From a virus: a stretch of 64,000 bases of DNA. The notes beneath the pieces were generated by a model. The model was not told the DNA's origin and made no database searches. It was given only the letters and a program-made list of their open reading frames with translations. Location of the stretch: positions 6,095 to 70,094 of IMG/VR virus record IMGVR_UViG_3300028151_000001; one strand, given 5' to 3'. Both the position numbers and the translations under genes were made by a program. Below are positions 2,407 to 34,234 of the stretch, piece after piece. Within the stretch, counting starts at the first letter, position 1. Every line of letters starts with the position of its first letter.

Positions 2407-3091
2407 TCAAGCAGGAATCTCTAAGCCTACCATTAAAATTAATAAGCCACTTAATTGTGGCTATAACTTTGACCGAGGAAACTTAAAAATAAAATTAGTC
2501 TATGGAGTTGGAATAAATGATGCTAACTATACATTAAGTAAGCAAGGTAGTATTGATGGTAAGAGAAAAACAATCTGGAAATGTCCTTACTATGTGAGGT
2601 GGTGCTCTATGTTAGAACGATGTTACAGTGAAAACTTTGTTAACAAACAACCTACTTATAGAGATTGCTCAGTTTGTCAAGAGTGGCTTTCTTTTATGAC
2701 ATTTAGAGCATGGATGATTTCGCAAGAATGGGAAGGCCTTGAACTGGACAAAGATATCCTCAAAGTTGGTAACAAAGTCTACGGTCCAGACACGTGTGTA
2801 TTTGTTACTCGTCTTGTTAATTCTTTTATATTAGACAAGAAAACCAAACAAGGCAAGTATCCTATGGGTGTGTATGAACAAGCAGCGTCTAACAAGTATG
2901 CTTCTAGGTGTTGGGACTATTCCACAGGAAAAAGAGTACACCTTGGAAACTATGAAACTCCAGAGGAAGCCCACAGAGCTTGGCTTGCGTTCAAACTAGA
3001 ACAAGCTTACCAACTTGCGTTAATGCAAACAGATGTACGTGTATCTAAAGCTCTGATTGACAGATATGAGAATTATACTACTTATCAATAA
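2366..3091 (+). CDS. HNH-type homing endonuclease with AP2-like C-terminus (likely true start near 2489)
   Basis: YGVGIND...WCSMLERCY...LELDKDIL..GNKVYGPDTCVFV motif shared with 23406 and 62057 ORFs. Confidence 0.75.
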   Translation: MLKTVFVEYTLKYNQAGISKPTIKINKPLNCGYNFDRGNLKIKLVYGVGINDANYTLSKQGSIDGKRKTIWKCPYYVRWCSMLERCYSENFVNKQPTYRDCSVCQEWLSFMTFRAWMISQEWEGLELDKDILKVGNKVYGPDTCVFVTRLVNSFILDKKTKQGKYPMGVYEQAASNKYASRCWDYSTGKRVHLGNYETPEEAHRAWLAFKLEQAYQLALMQTDVRVSKALIDRYENYTTYQ

Positions 3092-3858: not shown

Positions 3859-4857
3859 TTAGATATTTCTGACTCCACCATGCTCTTCAAATATTCTGAT
3901 TACATGTTCTATATTTGAGGGGAAAGTAGTTTCTGTATATCCATCTGCCATTTCATACTTACTTAAAATACCTACTGTCATCGAATGCATACAGGTTCTT
4001 TCAGCTGCCTTACAGGATTGTACATCAGGATAAACCCATACACCATAATTAATAATAGAATAAACGGAGTTTAGGTTCTGAGACTTAATCCTCTCGGATG
4101 ATATGTTAGCCACACCAAACTTGATTGCAACTGTGTGAGAGTCATCCATTACCAAATTTATATAGGTTTCTTGAGGTCGTTGATGACTACACTTACAGCA
4201 CCTACTGCCTTTATACAAACCTACAATGTGCCCCTCTCCGTGAGTTTCACATTCAGGGCAATAAACATTCCAATATTTCTTGTGCCCGTTCTTATCAAGT
4301 CTGGGGCTTCTTGTGAATATTGTCCCTAAAGGGAATCCAGACTCCATGAAGCGTTTTATCATAACCTCATCATCTTTTCTCTTAAAGTCTCCCATCTTAA
4401 CGGCTTTGCAACCATTACAACCAGAGTCGTACTTCTTATCCAACAACGCACACAGAAGAGAACCTGAATACTCTCCGTGTACTGGACATTCAAGTAGCAC
4501 CTTAGTAAAGTTAGACTTCTTGTACTCTGAAGCCCAACCTATAAATCTCACCCCTTTTAATTTTGCAGATCTTGAGGCCCTGATTTTGTACTGATGTTCT
4601 GTCCAAGCGAATTTTCCAGAACAACCACATGGCTTGTGACCTTTTAATAGATGGTGTTTTGTTGTCACAAAGTAACCGCCATTAAACAGCTCTATATCCT
4701 CAGCACAAACACTACATCTTAAAATAAATCTTTTACTTGTCTGTCCCTCCATTCTTCCATTCCAACCTACAACTGTAGAACTTCCAAATAAACTGCCAAC
4801 AAAATCGTCATCTGTCCTAAGTTCTCCATCTATAATCAACTCTTCTAGACTACTCAT
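3859..4857 (-). CDS. putative homing-endonuclease-like protein: Cys-rich Zn modules plus C-terminal T5orf172/GIY-YIG-like domain
   Basis: Multiple CxxC/CPxHG/CGC motifs; C-terminal ETYINL...IKFGV...AE...GYTET; paralog of 44440..45414. Confidence 0.6.
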   Translation of the reverse strand: MSSLEELIIDGELRTDDDFVGSLFGSSTVVGWNGRMEGQTSKRFILRCSVCAEDIELFNGGYFVTTKHHLLKGHKPCGCSGKFAWTEHQYKIRASRSAKLKGVRFIGWASEYKKSNFTKVLLECPVHGEYSGSLLCALLDKKYDSGCNGCKAVKMGDFKRKDDEVMIKRFMESGFPLGTIFTRSPRLDKNGHKKYWNVYCPECETHGEGHIVGLYKGSRCCKCSHQRPQETYINLVMDDSHTVAIKFGVANISSERIKSQNLNSVYSIINYGVWVYPDVQSCKAAERTCMHSMTVGILSKYEMADGYTETTFPSNIEHVIRIFEEHGGVRNI

Positions 4858-19851: not shown

Positions 19852-21204
19852 ATGATATATGAATTAAAGGATATGAATGAGGTAGAGAGATACATGCTTA
19901 CTCTATGCTCCAAGGATTCATATCTCTACTACCATAAAACAAAGATGTATGAATCTGTAGTCGTAGAATTGCTATCAAAGACAAAGGATAAATGGGAGAA
20001 TGCGGTAAGATGGTTTGTAACCAATACAGCCAGAGGTTTGAAGCATAAAGCCCATGCTATGAATGTGTCTCTTCTTTCCAACTACTACTCCAAGAACGTA
20101 TGTGGTATTGGATACAGGAATGTTAAATCATTACTTGACTTACTGGAGTCAAAAGGTTATATTCACATCTATAAAGGGTTTGTAGAAGAGTGGGAAGTGA
20201 GGGATAAAAAGCTTGTTCCTGTAAAAGCCTTCCGTTCTGTTGTCCTCTTTAGGAAGAGATACCTTGAGCTTTGGAATGACATACCGGTGGATCTATACGC
20301 TAAGGGCACTGAGCTAGAATTAATTAACCTGAAAACCAGAAAGACAAAAGAAGATATTTCTCTTAAAGGAAAGGCAGGTGTTACAAACATGAGAAAGGAG
20401 ATGGAATTGTATAACGAAAATCTTTACAGTGCTGACATTAAATTCAACGGACAGCCAATTGCTGTTGTTGAATACAAACGTGAGTTTCTTGATAATCTAA
20501 ACTCATGTGGTCGAGTTTTCGCAGCAGGCGGGGGTGTTCAGCTACTTCCACAACGGTATCGTGCAGATTTCCTTACAATTGACAATGAGAGTGTTGTGGA
20601 GCTTGACTTTTCATCAATCCACCCCAACATATGCTATCAATTGATCCACAACAGTGGGCAAGATGTGCGAGGTATTCTTGGTGAAGACTTTAAACCTTAT
20701 GATGCTAAGCTTGATTTTGTAAAAGTAGACTGGATGCTTATTGAACAGCATAAAAAGAAGTTTGGTATTGAGTCTTATGACCCTGTTCGTAACATCGCGA
20801 AGCTTGCTCTGTTGGTGGGCATGAATTGTGTAGACATTGAAGAGGCTATTGGGGCTGTTAGTCAGAAGCTTAAAAATGATTATCAGAAGGATGAGGTTAA
20901 GCGTAAATTTGTTGGATTGGTCAGTAAAGTGCCAGTAAGAGCTATCCTTGAGGCAATCAGGGAACATAACTTTTTGATTGAGGATTATTTCTTTAATGAC
21001 TATGGTGTGCAGCTCCAAAACATAGACAGCAAGATTGCAAGCTCCGTTATCTCAACACTGGTACAGCTTGACATCACTGTGCTGTCTTACCACGATAGTT
21101 TCGTGACAGCAGCAAAGCATGAGAAAGTTTTGAGGCAAGCCATGTATGATGCATGGTCTGATAATTTAAAAGATGCTACATTTGCCAAGGCAGATAAGAA
21201 ATGA
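19852..21204 (+). CDS. uncharacterised family-A polymerase-like protein (PolA/T7-RNAP-type palm, no exonuclease, N-terminal wHTH-like region)
   Basis: CGRVF...VQLLP (motif 2a-like), ELDFSSIHP (motif A), RNIAK (motif B), LQNIDS, SYHDSF (motif C). Confidence 0.6.
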   Translation: MIYELKDMNEVERYMLTLCSKDSYLYYHKTKMYESVVVELLSKTKDKWENAVRWFVTNTARGLKHKAHAMNVSLLSNYYSKNVCGIGYRNVKSLLDLLESKGYIHIYKGFVEEWEVRDKKLVPVKAFRSVVLFRKRYLELWNDIPVDLYAKGTELELINLKTRKTKEDISLKGKAGVTNMRKEMELYNENLYSADIKFNGQPIAVVEYKREFLDNLNSCGRVFAAGGGVQLLPQRYRADFLTIDNESVVELDFSSIHPNICYQLIHNSGQDVRGILGEDFKPYDAKLDFVKVDWMLIEQHKKKFGIESYDPVRNIAKLALLVGMNCVDIEEAIGAVSQKLKNDYQKDEVKRKFVGLVSKVPVRAILEAIREHNFLIEDYFFNDYGVQLQNIDSKIASSVISTLVQLDITVLSYHDSFVTAAKHEKVLRQAMYDAWSDNLKDATFAKADKK

Positions 21205-21495: not shown

Positions 21496-21681
21496 TTGTC
21501 CACTATGGGCGAAGTAAGTTTTTGTTCACAGTGTGGTCGCCTTGACGGATATTGCGTCTGTGAAATTGAAGTAGAATACTTGGAAGACAGTATGGAAGTG
21601 TTTAGGGTGGAGTGGGCTTTTGAAAGCCTAACTTGCCCAGACGAAACTATGTACAAAACTATTTTACCAAAGTATGAATAA
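21496..21681 (+). CDS. small Cys-rich hypothetical protein (likely ATG 21505)
   Basis: ORF track; CSQCG...CVC; GAGG SD. Confidence 0.6.
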   Translation: MSTMGEVSFCSQCGRLDGYCVCEIEVEYLEDSMEVFRVEWAFESLTCPDETMYKTILPKYE

Positions 21682-21687
21682 AGTGCT

Positions 21688-21716
21688 TGACAGAAACCCC
21701 TAACTGTGTAATAATT
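21688..21716 (+). promoter_or_regulatory. possible promoter upstream of the ncRNA region
   Basis: TTGACA-17 nt-AATAAT (imperfect -10). Confidence 0.45.
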
Positions 21717-21849
21717 AGATATATTGATGGAGAAAAGATATGAATGAAGAGTACGAAGGGTTTTAAAGAGCAACAAATCCTTGGTGATATGGCACGATTC
21801 TAGCAATTTCCATAATGTTTGTTGGTAGGATGAGAACAAGGATAAATTA

Positions 21850-21963
21850 ATTTGATGTACTTAGTGTGAATGCGGCTGTCTTTGATCCGTTCAACTCGGA
21901 TGTAGAAAGTGGTTTTCCAAAGGCATTGCTTAGCTAGTCAGGTGCAATTCCTGAACATCAAAT
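21850..21963 (+). ncRNA. tRNA-like structured RNA with a nested T-arm/D-arm insert
   Basis: ATTTGATGT/ACATCAAAT terminal stem; TCAGG-TGCAATT-CCTGA T-arm; inner ATCCG-TTCAACT-CGGAT and GAAAGTGGTTTTC hairpins closed by GTCTTTG/CAAAGGC. Confidence 0.5.
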
Positions 21964-22440
21964 GGGTTCGCACTTCACAAAACATGCTTAGGCTGAGTGG
22001 GTGTGACGCTGCCAGAGTTGGCATATGCAGCTATGATGCCGATAAGATTAGTCTTACGGTAGAACTCAAAACTAAAAAGACTGAACCGTCCCTATCAAGT
22101 GGTAGGTTGTCTTCTTGCCTGTAACAAGGCTAGTCCATGACAGTAAAGAGTTTTAATTCGGGATCTGTTTAGAAAGTCAGAATGCGAGCTACACGTGAGG
22201 ATGTTCAACTCGAAAGCTAATTTGGCCCTCCATTAGCAAGTAGAGCACAGTCGAGTTCTGATAAAGTCGTCTTACAAGAAACAGCGATAAGGTAATTACT
22301 CATCCTTATGTATGACTTGTAAGGTGCAATAATTTAGATTAGCTTGTCTGTCTATTTTAGCTGTACAGCTAATAGTGATGATTGAGCTAATAATGATTTG
22401 ACCCCCCAACACGAAGAATCAATTCTATAAAGTTGGGATT
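21964..22440 (+). ncRNA. candidate large structured non-coding RNA
   Basis: No credible ORF; dense short stems (GCCA-GAGT-TGGC, GCCT-GTAACA-AGGC, GCTAAT/ATTAGC, CTTACAAG/CTTGTAAG enclosing ATAAGG/CCTTAT, palindrome TAGCTGTACAGCTA). Confidence 0.4.
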
Positions 22441-22451
22441 CACCGCTGATA

Positions 22452-22624
22452 AGAGTCTTCTCCTACTCTGACTCAGTACTTAAAGACCTCAGAGGTTTCT
22501 CCTCCCCTTAAGGTCTTTCATGTTCTTGTGTCTTGCCCTCTCCTCTCGGCATGAGAACATTTTCTAAATAATCTTGTTGTTTATTAACGATATTGCCAGT
22601 TAGCTGGTCAGGATTATTTAGAAA
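22452..22624 (+). ncRNA. tandem hairpins with CUCCU-containing loops followed by a 16-bp stem
   Basis: Stems at 22452-22469, 22482-22518, 22520-22560 and 22561-22624 read directly from sequence. Confidence 0.5.
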
Positions 22625-22637
22625 ATAATATTCCTCA

Positions 22638-22740
22638 TGTGTATTTACTTGGTCTCATGGGTTCGTCTATTGGTTAAGACTCCACAAGCCGCCTCGTCGC
22701 AGGATAAAGCTGGTTCGATTCCAGCATCAAGAAGTACACA
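22638..22740 (+). tRNA. degenerate (pseudo) tRNA; anticodon not assignable (GTC/Asp-like remnant possible)
   Basis: Perfect T-arm GCTGG-TTCGATT-CCAGC, D-arm GTCT-ATTGGTTA-AGAC, acceptor CTTGGT/ATCAAG; poorly paired anticodon arm, no CCA. Confidence 0.5.
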
Positions 22741-22862
22741 GTAGAAATATTATTTAATAGTAAGAAGTCCCCTCTGTACAACAAGCGTCTCTTACATCTT
22801 AGGATTTAGTCACAGCATATTCGTTCTGACTAAACTCCGAACAATTGCGTAGGAATAATGAT

Positions 22863-23267
22863 ATGGCTAAGCAACCGCATACTCCAGCACAGCGTGCAAC
22901 ACGCTTCGATGGAGAGAAAAGCAATAGGAATGAAAAGGGTAATTCTTCTACCCGCATTAAGAAGAGTAAGCTTCGAGAACTTGCTGATAAGCTTCTGGAA
23001 CGTCAAGATATTGCGCTTCAGCTAGTGGATAAAAGTCTGGCTGGCACAGATGTTAATGCTGACAGCGTTGCTTCTGCCAAGTGGGTGCTGAACTCGATTG
23101 TAAGCGTAATTAAAAATGCTACGGCGGAAGAGCTTGGTTCATTTAATGCCCGACTGAAAGGCAAAAGGGATGAAGAAGAAGCTGAACAGACTCCGAAAGA
23201 GATTGCTGCTGAATTGAAGCCTCGTCTTAGTCTGGTTTTTGTTGACCCGGATGATAATGAAGAGTAG
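22863..23267 (+). CDS. putative terminase small subunit
   Basis: N-terminal TRFDGEKSNRN..GN motif typical of TerS-like proteins, helical body, upstream of terL; track start 22845. Confidence 0.5.
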   Translation: MAKQPHTPAQRATRFDGEKSNRNEKGNSSTRIKKSKLRELADKLLERQDIALQLVDKSLAGTDVNADSVASAKWVLNSIVSVIKNATAEELGSFNARLKGKRDEEEAEQTPKEIAAELKPRLSLVFVDPDDNEE

Positions 23268-28388: not shown

Positions 28389-29831
28389 ATGGAAGAACAA
28401 AAACCAGTAGGTCCGAGTAGTCCGAAACAAAACCTTATTCTCCATCAGTCAAATGATACGGCTATTGTGGGTGGGGCAATGGGTTCTGGAAAAAGTTACG
28501 TAGCTTTGCTTTATCCTCTTAAGTTTGCTGAAGACCCTTACTTAAGAGGTGTAATCTTCCGTAAAACAACAGGAGAACTTACTGCACAGGGTGGTTTGTG
28601 GGAAACAGCTTGCGAGTTGTATTCCTATGTTTTTGGTGAAAAGAATATAAAAATTAACCAAAAACATTTAAAGATTACCTTTCCCTCGGGGGGCAGCATA
28701 AAGTTCTCCCATATGGAGCATGATCAGAACCGTTTCCAGCATCAAGGTGCACAATACACCTTTGTGTTATTTGACGAAGCAACACACTTTTCCCAAGTTT
28801 GCATAGAATATCTTGGTTTGCGGATACGTTCTGCGAGAGCAAAACATAAAAAGCAAATGGTCCTTACCTGTAACCCTGATCCTGACTGGTTTGCTCTAGA
28901 TTGGATTAAACCTTATCTGCAAGATGATGGTACTCCAGATTTATCAAAAGATGGTAAGACTAGATATTATGTAGTAGAAGATGGTAAATATTTGTGGGCC
29001 GACGACAGGGAAGAGTTAGAATCAATTTACGGTGAAGGGGAAGAGTCAGGTATTAAGACTTTTACCTTTATCAGTGCGACTTGTTATGATAACCCAATTT
29101 TGCTCGCCAACGATAGGGGCTACATTTCTACACTTAAAGCTAAACCCTACGTAGATGTACAGCGCTATCTTTTTGGAAATTGGTTTGTAAGGCCCTCTGG
29201 TAGCGGCATGTTCAAAAAATCTTGGCTGTCTCCAGTTAGGTTATTTGAACAAGAGATTGTATCCTATTGCCGCGCATGGGATATAGCTGGCAGTACGCCA
29301 TCAGACGAGAATCCAAATCCTGACTGGACTGCTGGTGTTCTAATGGCTAAGACTAAAAATGGCCGCTATATTATCGTTGACTGTGTAAGGTTTCGAGCTA
29401 GGTACGGAGAGGTTATCCGTAAGATGATTGAAATTGCTCGTGAAGATCCTGAAGGGACAATTATAGTTGCACCGCAGGAGCCAGGCCAAGCGGGAAAAGC
29501 TGCAAGTCAAATGATGCAGAAAGAGTTTATTTCTGAAGGCTTCAGTGCTCGTATGCGGCCAACTAACAAGAGTAAAGTTGTAAGGTTTCAACCCCTAGCT
29601 GCTGCTGCTGAGACAGGCTTGGTTGACTATGTTGAGGGTGAGTGGAATAAAGATTTCTTCTCAGAACTTGAAGCATTCGACGGCTCCAGAAATAAAAAAG
29701 ACGATCAATGTGACTCAGCAGGGGATGCGTTTGTAACCCTAGCTCAGAAAATGATTGTACCAAACTTCCTTTCAGGTATGCAGTCTTTTGGTTTTGAACA
29801 AACCAACAACCCTTTAAATAATATTCGTTAA
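28389..29831 (+). CDS. terL: terminase large subunit
   Basis: GGAMGSGKS Walker A, FDEATHF Walker B, LTCNP motif III, RAWD nuclease Asp, DDQCDS. Confidence 0.95.
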   Translation: MEEQKPVGPSSPKQNLILHQSNDTAIVGGAMGSGKSYVALLYPLKFAEDPYLRGVIFRKTTGELTAQGGLWETACELYSYVFGEKNIKINQKHLKITFPSGGSIKFSHMEHDQNRFQHQGAQYTFVLFDEATHFSQVCIEYLGLRIRSARAKHKKQMVLTCNPDPDWFALDWIKPYLQDDGTPDLSKDGKTRYYVVEDGKYLWADDREELESIYGEGEESGIKTFTFISATCYDNPILLANDRGYISTLKAKPYVDVQRYLFGNWFVRPSGSGMFKKSWLSPVRLFEQEIVSYCRAWDIAGSTPSDENPNPDWTAGVLMAKTKNGRYIIVDCVRFRARYGEVIRKMIEIAREDPEGTIIVAPQEPGQAGKAASQMMQKEFISEGFSARMRPTNKSKVVRFQPLAAAAETGLVDYVEGEWNKDFFSELEAFDGSRNKKDDQCDSAGDAFVTLAQKMIVPNFLSGMQSFGFEQTNNPLNNIR

Positions 29832-33160: not shown

Positions 33161-34234
33161 ATGGCAATTGCTTTTCAACCAAATAACACTACTCAGGTAA
33201 CTGAGCTTACCAACCAGATCGTAACCATTCCTAACCGTTGGGGTCTGATCAACAGCATGGGCCTGTTTAACGAGCAAGGTGTTACTCAAGAAAACGTATC
33301 GGTTTCCCTGCTGACTGAAGTTGATGGTCTGCCAGTTGACCGTAACTGGGATGAGCGTAACAGCACCATCAAGCCTACTCAGCGTGCTCTGGTAAGCTTC
33401 CCAATTCCTCACTTCCCACTGGATACCATGATCACTCCTCGTGATCTGCAAGGTATCATCTCTTGGACTAACTTTGCCCAAGGTCTGGAACTGGAAACTG
33501 TTGCTGCTGTACGTCTGCGTAAGATGCAAGAGATTCGCAATCGTTACGAGCGTCTGTCCGAAGTATCCCGTATGCAAATCATCACAACTGGTGGTGTGTA
33601 TGCTCCAAGCGGTACTCTGACCCGCTCTTATGGTCCAACCGTAAACTACTACAATGAGTTCGGTGTTACTCGTACTGAGATTGTTACTGATCTGGGTAAC
33701 GTCAACGTTGACCCTCTGAGCTACACCAACGACATTATCTCGGGTATCCAAGATGGTCTGTTGAATGGTCAAATCGCTGATAACTTTGTTGTAATCTGCT
33801 CGCCAGAATACTTCCAAGCTCTGATCACCAACCCTTATATCACTGAAGTGTATAAGTATTTCCGCCGTGATCAAGATCCACTGGTTAATCGTCTGTCGGC
33901 TGCTGGTATGGGTCTGCCTGCCAACTACCAAGTCTTCAACTTTGGTGGTCTGACTTTCATCGAATACCGTGGCACTTACACCGACCAAAACGGTGTTGTT
34001 CAACGCTTTATCCCTGCTGGTGATGCTTACGCGTTCCCACTGGGTGTAACTGATATGTTCCAGACCTACTTCGCTCCTGCTCTCACTTTCCCAAGTGTTA
34101 ACACTGCTGGTCAGTCTGTTTACTACGCAGAGTACATGGGCGATAAGATGGATAAGATTGAAATTATGTCTGAATCCAACCAGTTGAACGCTTGCTTGCG
34201 TCCACAAGCTATTGTTCGTCTGTCGTTGACCTAA
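33161..34234 (+). CDS. major capsid protein (capsid E family)
   Basis: 357 aa, strong codon bias, position, followed by terminator; GLF..QG, GGLTFIEYRG, ESN.L..C.RP features. Confidence 0.92.
   Translation: MAIAFQPNNTTQVTELTNQIVTIPNRWGLINSMGLFNEQGVTQENVSVSLLTEVDGLPVDRNWDERNSTIKPTQRALVSFPIPHFPLDTMITPRDLQGIISWTNFAQGLELETVAAVRLRKMQEIRNRYERLSEVSRMQIITTGGVYAPSGTLTRSYGPTVNYYNEFGVTRTEIVTDLGNVNVDPLSYTNDIISGIQDGLLNGQIADNFVVICSPEYFQALITNPYITEVYKYFRRDQDPLVNRLSAAGMGLPANYQVFNFGGLTFIEYRGTYTDQNGVVQRFIPAGDAYAFPLGVTDMFQTYFAPALTFPSVNTAGQSVYYAEYMGDKMDKIEIMSESNQLNACLRPQAIVRLSLT

What the first reader, a model, noticed from the sequence alone, without database searches (positions are those of the whole stretch)
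21964..22440. Candidate large ornate ncRNA between tRNA-like elements
About 480 nt with no SD-led ORF but many nested helices (e.g. CTTACAAG 22271/CTTGTAAG 22316 enclosing ATAAGG/CCTTAT; GCCT-GTAACA-AGGC; a 14-bp palindrome at 22359). Large phage ncRNAs of unknown function (GOLLD, ROOL classes) are known to sit among tRNA genes. I cannot assign this one to a class.
Basis: partly seen in the sequence, partly recalled or inferred. Interest (0 to 1): 0.65.

Follow-up and report, generated by a model that had tools for sequence, protein, structure and literature searches.

The report
Phage cassette of small folded RNAs
The flagged 480 bases are not one giant RNA but a row of separate small folded RNAs that related phages mix and match, and one of them is an uncatalogued, roughly 90-base pseudoknotted RNA also carried by phage T4 and about a thousand other phage records, with no known function.

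Summary
The helices are real and no ribosome-binding-site-led gene is present, but this is not one GOLLD/ROOL-like RNA: no Rfam match, and the whole interval folds no better than shuffles (z -1.5). It is the middle of a non-coding cassette in an ~89-kb phage and splits into modules that relatives carry in different combinations: A (21965-22070), B (22074-22164), C1/C2 (22176-22335), an unshared hairpin, and the start of a separate anti-Shine-Dalgarno RNA (22401 on). A and C covary in five genomes each. B belongs to a family found by BLAST in about 1,000 phage records (T4-like, rV5-like, T5-like Aeromonas, Vibrio, Shewanella), often between tRNAs; a model built without the window finds it at 49 bits. 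B has a covarying three-way junction and a pseudoknot (permutation 0/20,000; kept in two later-fetched Vibrio copies). It is missing from six complete related genomes. Best reading: a polycistronic transcript cut into small stable RNAs, B acting in trans on a host protein (inferred); a new ribozyme is the main rival. No expression data. The scan noted family B before on T4-like DNA; the pseudoknot and modules A and C are not in the notes I saw.

The parts
21687..21715 (+). sigma-70-type promoter candidate, likely start of the cassette transcript
   Evidence: 11 of 12 consensus matches with TG extension; similar promoter-like sites precede the cassette in relatives (by eye); function not shown
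21779..21843 (+). module M0, stem-closed element upstream of the interval
   Evidence: 87% identical over 63 nt in L022; matched on its own by several contigs
21851..21963 (+). tRNA-like element T1 (acceptor-like stem and T-arm, no normal anticodon arm)
   Evidence: fold z -2.0; 93% identical in L010, which lacks A, B and C
21965..22070 (+). module A: long hairpin with a box C/D kink-turn-like internal loop, then a three-way junction
   Evidence: 5 genomes; 20 of 30 pairs with changes on both sides, 96.6% of cells paired; kink-turn reading by eye
22074..22164 (+). module B: widespread pseudoknotted RNA. P1 22077-81/22109-13; P2 hairpin; three-way junction P3 22114-16/22147-50, P4 22117-30 (GUAACA loop), P5 22133-41; pseudoknot 22086-88/22159-61
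   Evidence: held-out covariance model 49.3 bits, E 1e-10, only hit in window; covariation; pseudoknot permutation test
22176..22262 (+). module C1: multibranch element closed by its own terminal stem; one loop shows CCUCC
   Evidence: homologues in L006, L070, L152, L153 with compensatory changes
   Evidence: outer stem kept with compensatory changes in L006, L070, L152, L153; variants in L033, L022; z -2.6
22338..22391 (+). hairpin H with the 16-bp palindrome; not found in relatives
   Evidence: z -2.6; no match in 17 related loci
22401..22626 (+). separate RNA with several CUCCU (anti-Shine-Dalgarno-like) loops; only its first 40 nt fall in the flagged interval; 3' end approximate
   Evidence: same start in L017 and L033; a contig match begins at 22404; weak ar14 similarity, 19.9 bits against a cut-off of 58.8
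22623..22756 (+). tRNA-like element T2: cloverleaf at the end of a long stem
   Evidence: fold z -4.1; outer stem kept in L017 with a different interior

Best explanation
The interval is part of a protein-free RNA operon at the place where related phages keep their tRNAs. One transcript from the promoter at 21687-21715 carries a row of independently folding modules, which host processing enzymes (RNase P at tRNA-like folds, RNase E and trimming nucleases) release as small stable RNAs, as for T4 species 1 and 2 RNAs. Phages gain and lose the modules one by one. Module B folds into a compact, tRNA-sized particle: a three-way junction showing a GUAAYA loop, tied back onto a P1/P2 helix by a 3-5 bp pseudoknot. 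I think it most likely acts in trans by binding a host protein of translation or anti-phage defence, as a decoy. Shown: modular distribution, conservation, secondary structure and pseudoknot by covariation. Inferred: transcription, processing and the decoy role. Odds: modular cassette about 0.85; B a trans-acting protein binder about 0.4 given that.
For: Module presence differs among genomes: A+B+C in window, L006, L070 (L033 with a C2 variant only); A without B in L022; C1/C2 without A or B in the complete genome of L152; none in L009, L010, L017. B: 1,040 phage records by BLAST from the VR7 copy (redundant records, E up to 5); held-out model hit; 82.7% of cells paired against 71.1% shuffled, 42 cells changed on both sides against 14.9, 0/500, and slid controls at most 55%; three P3 pairs 17/17 with 3-4 pair types; pseudoknot score 10.2 against 8.2 +/- 0.35, 0/20,000. 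Two Vibrio copies fetched after the structure was drawn keep the pseudoknot with new letters (GAGU/ACUC, GAAG/CUUC), and one swaps P4 from CCU/AGG to CCA/UGG. G-U pairs and GNRA loops point to RNA and to this strand. B has no fixed downstream gene: between tRNAs in Aeromonas phages, before vs.8 in T4-likes, before an internal-protein gene in kv_tblp2, before portal in KASIA, and opposite to the flanking head genes with a promoter candidate of its own in Vibrio phage 1.104.O. T4 annotates two small stable RNAs in its tRNA cluster.
Against: No transcript, end or partner was observed. The order A-B-C is the same wherever they occur together, and C1 always precedes C2, so some modules may stay joined in one RNA. 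A and C rest on five related genomes each. Relatedness inflates the shuffle tests. In T4-like phages B sits almost always just before vs.8, which fits a cis role there. The decoy role has no direct support.
Confidence: 0.6

Rival explanations
1. The cassette reading holds, but module B is a self-cleaving or processing ribozyme of an undescribed class that cuts the polycistronic transcript and frees neighbouring tRNAs and RNAs.
For: Size (about 90 nt), invariant junction bases and a pseudoknot nested across P1 are typical of small ribozymes; its helix order resembles the HDV fold; theta ribozymes sit beside phage tRNAs (PMC10879173); hammerhead-like and pistol-like elements occur in sister cassettes (L009, L025; by eye, no Rfam cut-off reached).
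Against: No ribozyme family of Rfam matches. The HDV core is absent: the loop in the L3 position is variable and the linker before the pseudoknot has no C in the window. Copies between intact tRNAs would be released by RNase P anyway.
Confidence: 0.2
2. Module B is a cis-acting element of the transcript: an antiterminator in the manner of HK022 put RNA, a nuclease block, or a regulatory leader (for vs.8 in T4-like phages).
For: In T4-likes it starts at the upstream stop codon and precedes vs.8 in hundreds of genomes; tandem copies in two phages.
Against: Downstream neighbours vary (tRNA, portal, internal protein, other RNAs, a terminator); a stand-alone antisense location in Vibrio phage 1.104.O.
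Confidence: 0.15
3. The interval is one large ornate RNA, like GOLLD or ROOL, whose domains are optional.
For: A, B and C keep the same order in three to four genomes; GOLLD has a variable 5' region and may hold tRNAs in its linker (PMC12286853).
Against: No universal domain; no helix joining modules was seen to be kept across genomes (inspection); the predicted end-to-end helix uses bases of the anti-SD RNA; no Rfam match.
Confidence: 0.07
4. The modules are decayed, non-functional spacer sequence.
For: Whole-interval folding is not better than shuffles; hairpin H is unshared.
Against: Dense compensatory change in A, B and C and retention of B across unrelated phage families.
Confidence: 0.02

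Closest known systems
T4 rnaC and rnaD (species 1 and 2 small stable RNAs of the T4 tRNA cluster)
   Same: Small phage RNAs of 100-140 nt, of unknown function, co-transcribed with tRNAs (annotation).
   Different: No sequence or model match: model R1 finds one T4 site, at 64852-64905 between denV and vs.8, not rnaC/D. B is not tRNA-shaped and has a junction plus pseudoknot.
GOLLD (RF02032) and ROOL (RF03087); accession numbers from memory
   Same: Phage-borne structured RNAs near tRNA islands, with pseudoknots and unknown function (PMC12286853).
   Different: Those are single RNAs of several hundred to over 800 nt that form cages; here the modules are 70-110 nt, assort independently and give no model match.
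Theta (HDV-like) and other tRNA-associated phage ribozymes (PMC10879173)
   Same: Small pseudoknotted RNAs next to phage tRNA genes; similar helix order (P1, a strand pairing with the 3' tail, an inserted domain).
   Different: No Rfam match; no conserved P3/L3/P1.1 core or linker cytosine.
Cuckoo / alpha-r14 sRNAs (RF02344)
   Same: The RNA starting at 22401 and one C1 loop display CCUCC-type loops.
   Different: Far below the family cut-off (19.9 against 58.8 bits); concerns the neighbour, not modules A or B.
23S rRNA helix 44 loop (GUAAUA, E. coli 1093-1098) and 16S rRNA 1497-1506
   Same: The P4 loop of B has the same six letters as the 23S loop, and one variant matches ten letters of 16S.
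   Different: Matches this short are near chance; different closing pair and no helix 43 partner. A lead for the decoy idea, not evidence.

Membership tests
GOLLD / ROOL / OLE | Match to the family covariance model | tested here: not met
   No hit at cut-off in the window, none up to E=5 in 21600-22950, none in homologous loci
GOLLD / ROOL / OLE | One RNA of several hundred nt with domains kept together | tested here: not met
   Modules occur separately
GOLLD / ROOL / OLE | Location at a phage tRNA island | tested here: met
   Relatives have tRNAs at this locus; the window has only tRNA-like folds
GOLLD / ROOL / OLE | Self-assembly into RNA-only oligomers | not testable with these tools
   Needs mass photometry or cryo-EM
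RNase P RNA (circularly permuted) | Conserved P4 pairing between the CR-I-like and CR-V-like words | tested here: not met
   The two look-alike words lie in modules B and A, which occur apart; their pairing is not kept in L006, L033 or KASIA, and the B word pairs locally in P5 with covariation
Group I intron | P3-P7 core with P4-P6 between, interrupting a host gene | tested here: not met
   No Rfam hit; no room for P4-P6; no split host gene at this site
HDV-like / theta ribozyme | Nested double pseudoknot with conserved L3, P1.1 and a linker cytosine | tested here: not met
   One pseudoknot supported; corresponding loop variable; no C in the window's linker; feature list from my own knowledge
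HDV-like / theta ribozyme | Self-cleavage | not testable with these tools
   Needs an in vitro assay
T4 species 1/2-type stable RNAs | Released from a tRNA-cluster transcript as a stable small RNA | not testable with these tools
   No RNA reads; context fits
T4 species 1/2-type stable RNAs | Homology to rnaC or rnaD | tested here: not met
   R1 has no hit in the T4 tRNA region L043; no BLAST match was listed in phages for the window query
Uncatalogued T4 denV-vs.8 RNA family (module B) | Three-way junction core P3/P4/P5 with GUAAYA loop and GUAA linker | tested here: met
   Held-out model 49.3 bits, all 54 positions
Uncatalogued T4 denV-vs.8 RNA family (module B) | P1 with a loop strand pairing to the 3' tail | tested here: met
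   P1 5 bp; pseudoknot 3 G-C pairs in the window, 3-5 pairs in homologues

The most novel reading that the evidence does not exclude
Module B is a new functional class of small RNA, either an undescribed self-cleaving ribozyme or an RNA-only inhibitor of a host defence or translation protein, overlooked in phage T4 itself and traded among unrelated phage families of Gammaproteobacteria; modules A and C are two further undescribed families in a swappable RNA cassette.
Probability: 0.3. Interest if true: 0.85.

Novelty: new variant of a known kind. Interest (0 to 1): 0.58.

Why it matters
Phage tRNA islands are usually read as lists of tRNAs. Here the island has no recognisable tRNA left and holds a set of structured RNAs that close relatives swap like accessory genes. 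One of them is in T4, the best-studied phage, has no Rfam entry, and I found no paper on it in the searchable library. With a covariation-backed fold including a pseudoknot, the question of what small phage RNAs in tRNA clusters do becomes testable in T4 and laboratory E. coli: self-cleavage, deletion, complementation, pull-down.

Tried and rejected
Rfam: no cut-off hit in the window, only sub-threshold chance-level hits in 21600-22950, and only tRNAs in 26 related loci. ARAGORN: no tRNA or tmRNA. Circularly permuted RNase P RNA, suggested by two look-alike words: rejected (see membership). Group I intron, tmRNA, hammerhead reading of C2, twister and hairpin ribozyme cores: considered by eye, did not fit. 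A second pseudoknot (P4 loop with the UUAC after P3): no compensatory change, absent in several copies, not claimed. My first pseudoknot guess (GUCCC with GGGAU) failed in L006 and was replaced by the register tested; an earlier run with eight mis-anchored P1 helices gave 10/10,000, and one copy is still mis-anchored. Pattern hits L003-L005, most module A pattern hits and the C1 pattern hits other than L070 that I inspected were chance or coding matches. MAFFT could not align C2 across all variants. BLAST of modules A and C against cultured phages found nothing. Related loci from the upstream 450-aa protein: none. Sequencing runs: no RNA holder listed; the contigs laid are probably DNA and none covers A or B, which says nothing on expression. 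Literature: searches for the motif letters, vs.8 and T4 ncRNA found no description; supplements of Fremin 2023 and Weinberg 2017 are not held, so an entry among their candidates, or among motifs never sent to Rfam, is not excluded.

Full report
Setting. The window comes from an 89,104-bp virus record. It has a terminase large subunit at 28389, a major head gene at 33161 and tail genes after it. The 450-aa gene before the region (phrog_4756) has relatives in Aeromonas, Vibrio and Pseudomonas phages; Pseudomonas phage M1 has the same gene order with three tRNAs at this locus. The window has no tRNA by ARAGORN and no Rfam hit. A near-consensus sigma-70 promoter lies at 21687-21715 on the + strand, and the next clear gene starts at 22863, so about 1.1 kb is free of credible genes.

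Observation. The interval as a whole does not fold better than shuffles (z -1.47). No large-RNA, RNase P or intron model matches up to E=5.

Homologues show modules. BLAST of the region hit only 56 bases, in Shewanella phage KASIA between terminase and portal. Walking out from that core, and from relatives found through the terminase, gave a set of loci in which different pieces of the interval recur with different neighbours. Module A (21965-22070) is in the window, L006, L070, L033 and L022, and in none of 32 other loci or four other whole genomes. Module B (22074-22164) is in the window, L006, L070 and L033, and absent from six complete related virus records, three of which have terminases 83-84% identical to the window's (KASIA and T4 served as positive controls). 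C1 and C2 (22176-22335) are in L006, L070, L152 and L153; the complete genome of L152 has neither A nor B. L033 and L022 have only a C2 variant. The last 40 bases (22401 on) are the start of a different RNA with CUCCU loops, present in L009, L010 and L017 without A, B or C. Hairpin H was not found elsewhere. Contigs from wastewater runs match four short pieces of the region separately and then diverge. This pattern is what a cassette of independent RNAs gives; a single RNA would need every domain to be optional.

Module B. From the Aeromonas copy the search reached T4-like phages, and from VR7 it returned 1,040 records (redundant, loose threshold). Confirmed copies are in T4, VR7, Karamvirus, rV5-like Murica, T5-like and T4-like Aeromonas phages, Shewanella and Vibrio phages. 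A model of the 54-nt core built from 20 copies, leaving out the window and its three nearest homologues, finds exactly one site in the window, 22107-22158, at 49.3 bits. The fold: an A-rich lead, P1, a variable P2 hairpin, then directly a three-way junction of P3 (three pairs around a bulged purine), P4 with a GUAAYA loop and P5, with a GUAA linker. Covariation is strong: 42 cells changed on both sides against 14.9 in shuffles, with slid controls far lower; the three inner P3 pairs hold in 17 of 17 parsed copies with three or four pair types each. The strand just after the 5' half of P1 pairs with the tail beyond P3, in many different letters (for example CCGA/UCGG, ACCA/UGGU, AGUG/UACU, GGGAG/CUCCC, GCCAG/CUGGU); cognate pairs beat all 20,000 permutations. 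Relatedness inflates that figure, but two Vibrio copies fetched afterwards keep the pairing with new letters, and one has a compensatory swap in the otherwise invariant P4. In the window the pseudoknot is three G-C pairs, 22086-88 with 22159-61 (for coordinates).

Context of B. It lies between tRNA-Glu and tRNA-Ile in T5-like Aeromonas phages, after tRNA-Thr in AS-zj, between denV and vs.8 in T4, between two internal-protein genes in kv_tblp2, in tandem in two T4-like phages, and in a 1-kb gene-free stretch opposite to the head genes of Vibrio phage 1.104.O, with a promoter candidate before it and a terminator-like hairpin after it. No fixed downstream gene argues against a riboswitch-type leader as the general role.

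Modules A and C. A is a long hairpin whose inner loop reads like a box C/D kink-turn (by eye; the window has C for the usual G), followed by a three-way junction; 20 of 30 pairs change on both sides among five sequences. Neither has a match among cultured phages or in Rfam.

Mechanism. Shown: the modules, their folds and their patchy distribution. Inferred from the known biology of T4-type tRNA clusters: one transcript from the 21687 promoter, cut at tRNA-like folds and A/U-rich linkers into small stable RNAs. For B I favour a trans-acting, protein-binding role because its context varies, it can stand alone on the antisense strand, and it comes and goes among close relatives like an accessory gene. 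Its loop letters equal those of 23S rRNA 1093-1098 and, in one variant, 16S 1497-1506, but such short matches are near chance and serve only as leads. A new ribozyme is the main rival; a cis element is third. Nothing here shows expression.

Novelty. Small stable RNAs of unknown function in phage tRNA clusters are a known kind (T4 species 1 and 2). B, A and C are not in Rfam 15 and I found no paper on them, with the caveat that two large candidate catalogues could not be checked. Earlier notes of this scan describe family B on T4-like DNA and the anti-SD RNA on related phages; I read them after finding the homologues and tested the B claim independently.

Noticed in passing
window 22401-22626 (+): Separate conserved RNA with three or more CUCCU loops resembling the 16S anti-Shine-Dalgarno; shared with L006, L009, L010, L017, L033. 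C1 has a similar loop at 22226.
   Followed up: partly
window 22623-22756 and 21851-21963 (+): Two tRNA-like folds missed by ARAGORN and Rfam. The second is a cloverleaf on a long stem, like bacterial Y RNAs in outline; L017 keeps the outer stem with a different interior.
   Followed up: partly
L046 6853-6950 (T4 about 64,850-64,945, minus strand): The T4 copy of module B overlaps the annotated start of vs.8 (219 aa); VR7 vs.8 is 175 aa and starts after the RNA, so the T4 start codon is probably annotated too far upstream.
   Followed up: partly
L009 about 4240-4295 (+): Hammerhead-like core (CUGACGA, stem, GAAA, stem, GUC) in the same cassette position of a close relative; below Rfam cut-offs, read by eye.
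   Followed up: no
L025 about 2595-2665 (+), repeated in L039: Pistol-ribozyme-like element just downstream of module B in Aeromonas phages AS-zj and CC2; by eye only, no Rfam hit.
   Followed up: no
L001 4850-4890; L027 2501-2542; L028 2501-2539: Another short element (about 40 nt) shared by KASIA, CR3, T5-like, KVP40-like and phAPEC8-like phages, sitting between tRNAs; no Rfam match.
   Followed up: no
L132 1172-2179 (+): Vibrio phage 1.104.O has a 1-kb gene-free stretch antisense to its head genes, with promoter candidate, a tRNA-like fold, several hairpins, module B and a terminator-like end: a second RNA cassette.
   Followed up: partly
L022 2990-3200 and L007 15160-15390: A further 200-nt non-coding element shared by L022 and Pseudomonas phage M1 in the same island; no Rfam cut-off hit in L022.
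   Followed up: no
L042 2075-2100, L046, L048, L049: In T4-like phages a small conserved hairpin follows module B and stays in front of vs.8 even when a gene is inserted between them (kv_tblp2), so it is a separate, vs.8-linked element.
   Followed up: no
window 19852-21204 (+): 450-aa protein of phrog_4756, unknown function (called DNA polymerase in phage M1), precedes the RNA island in this phage group.
   Followed up: no
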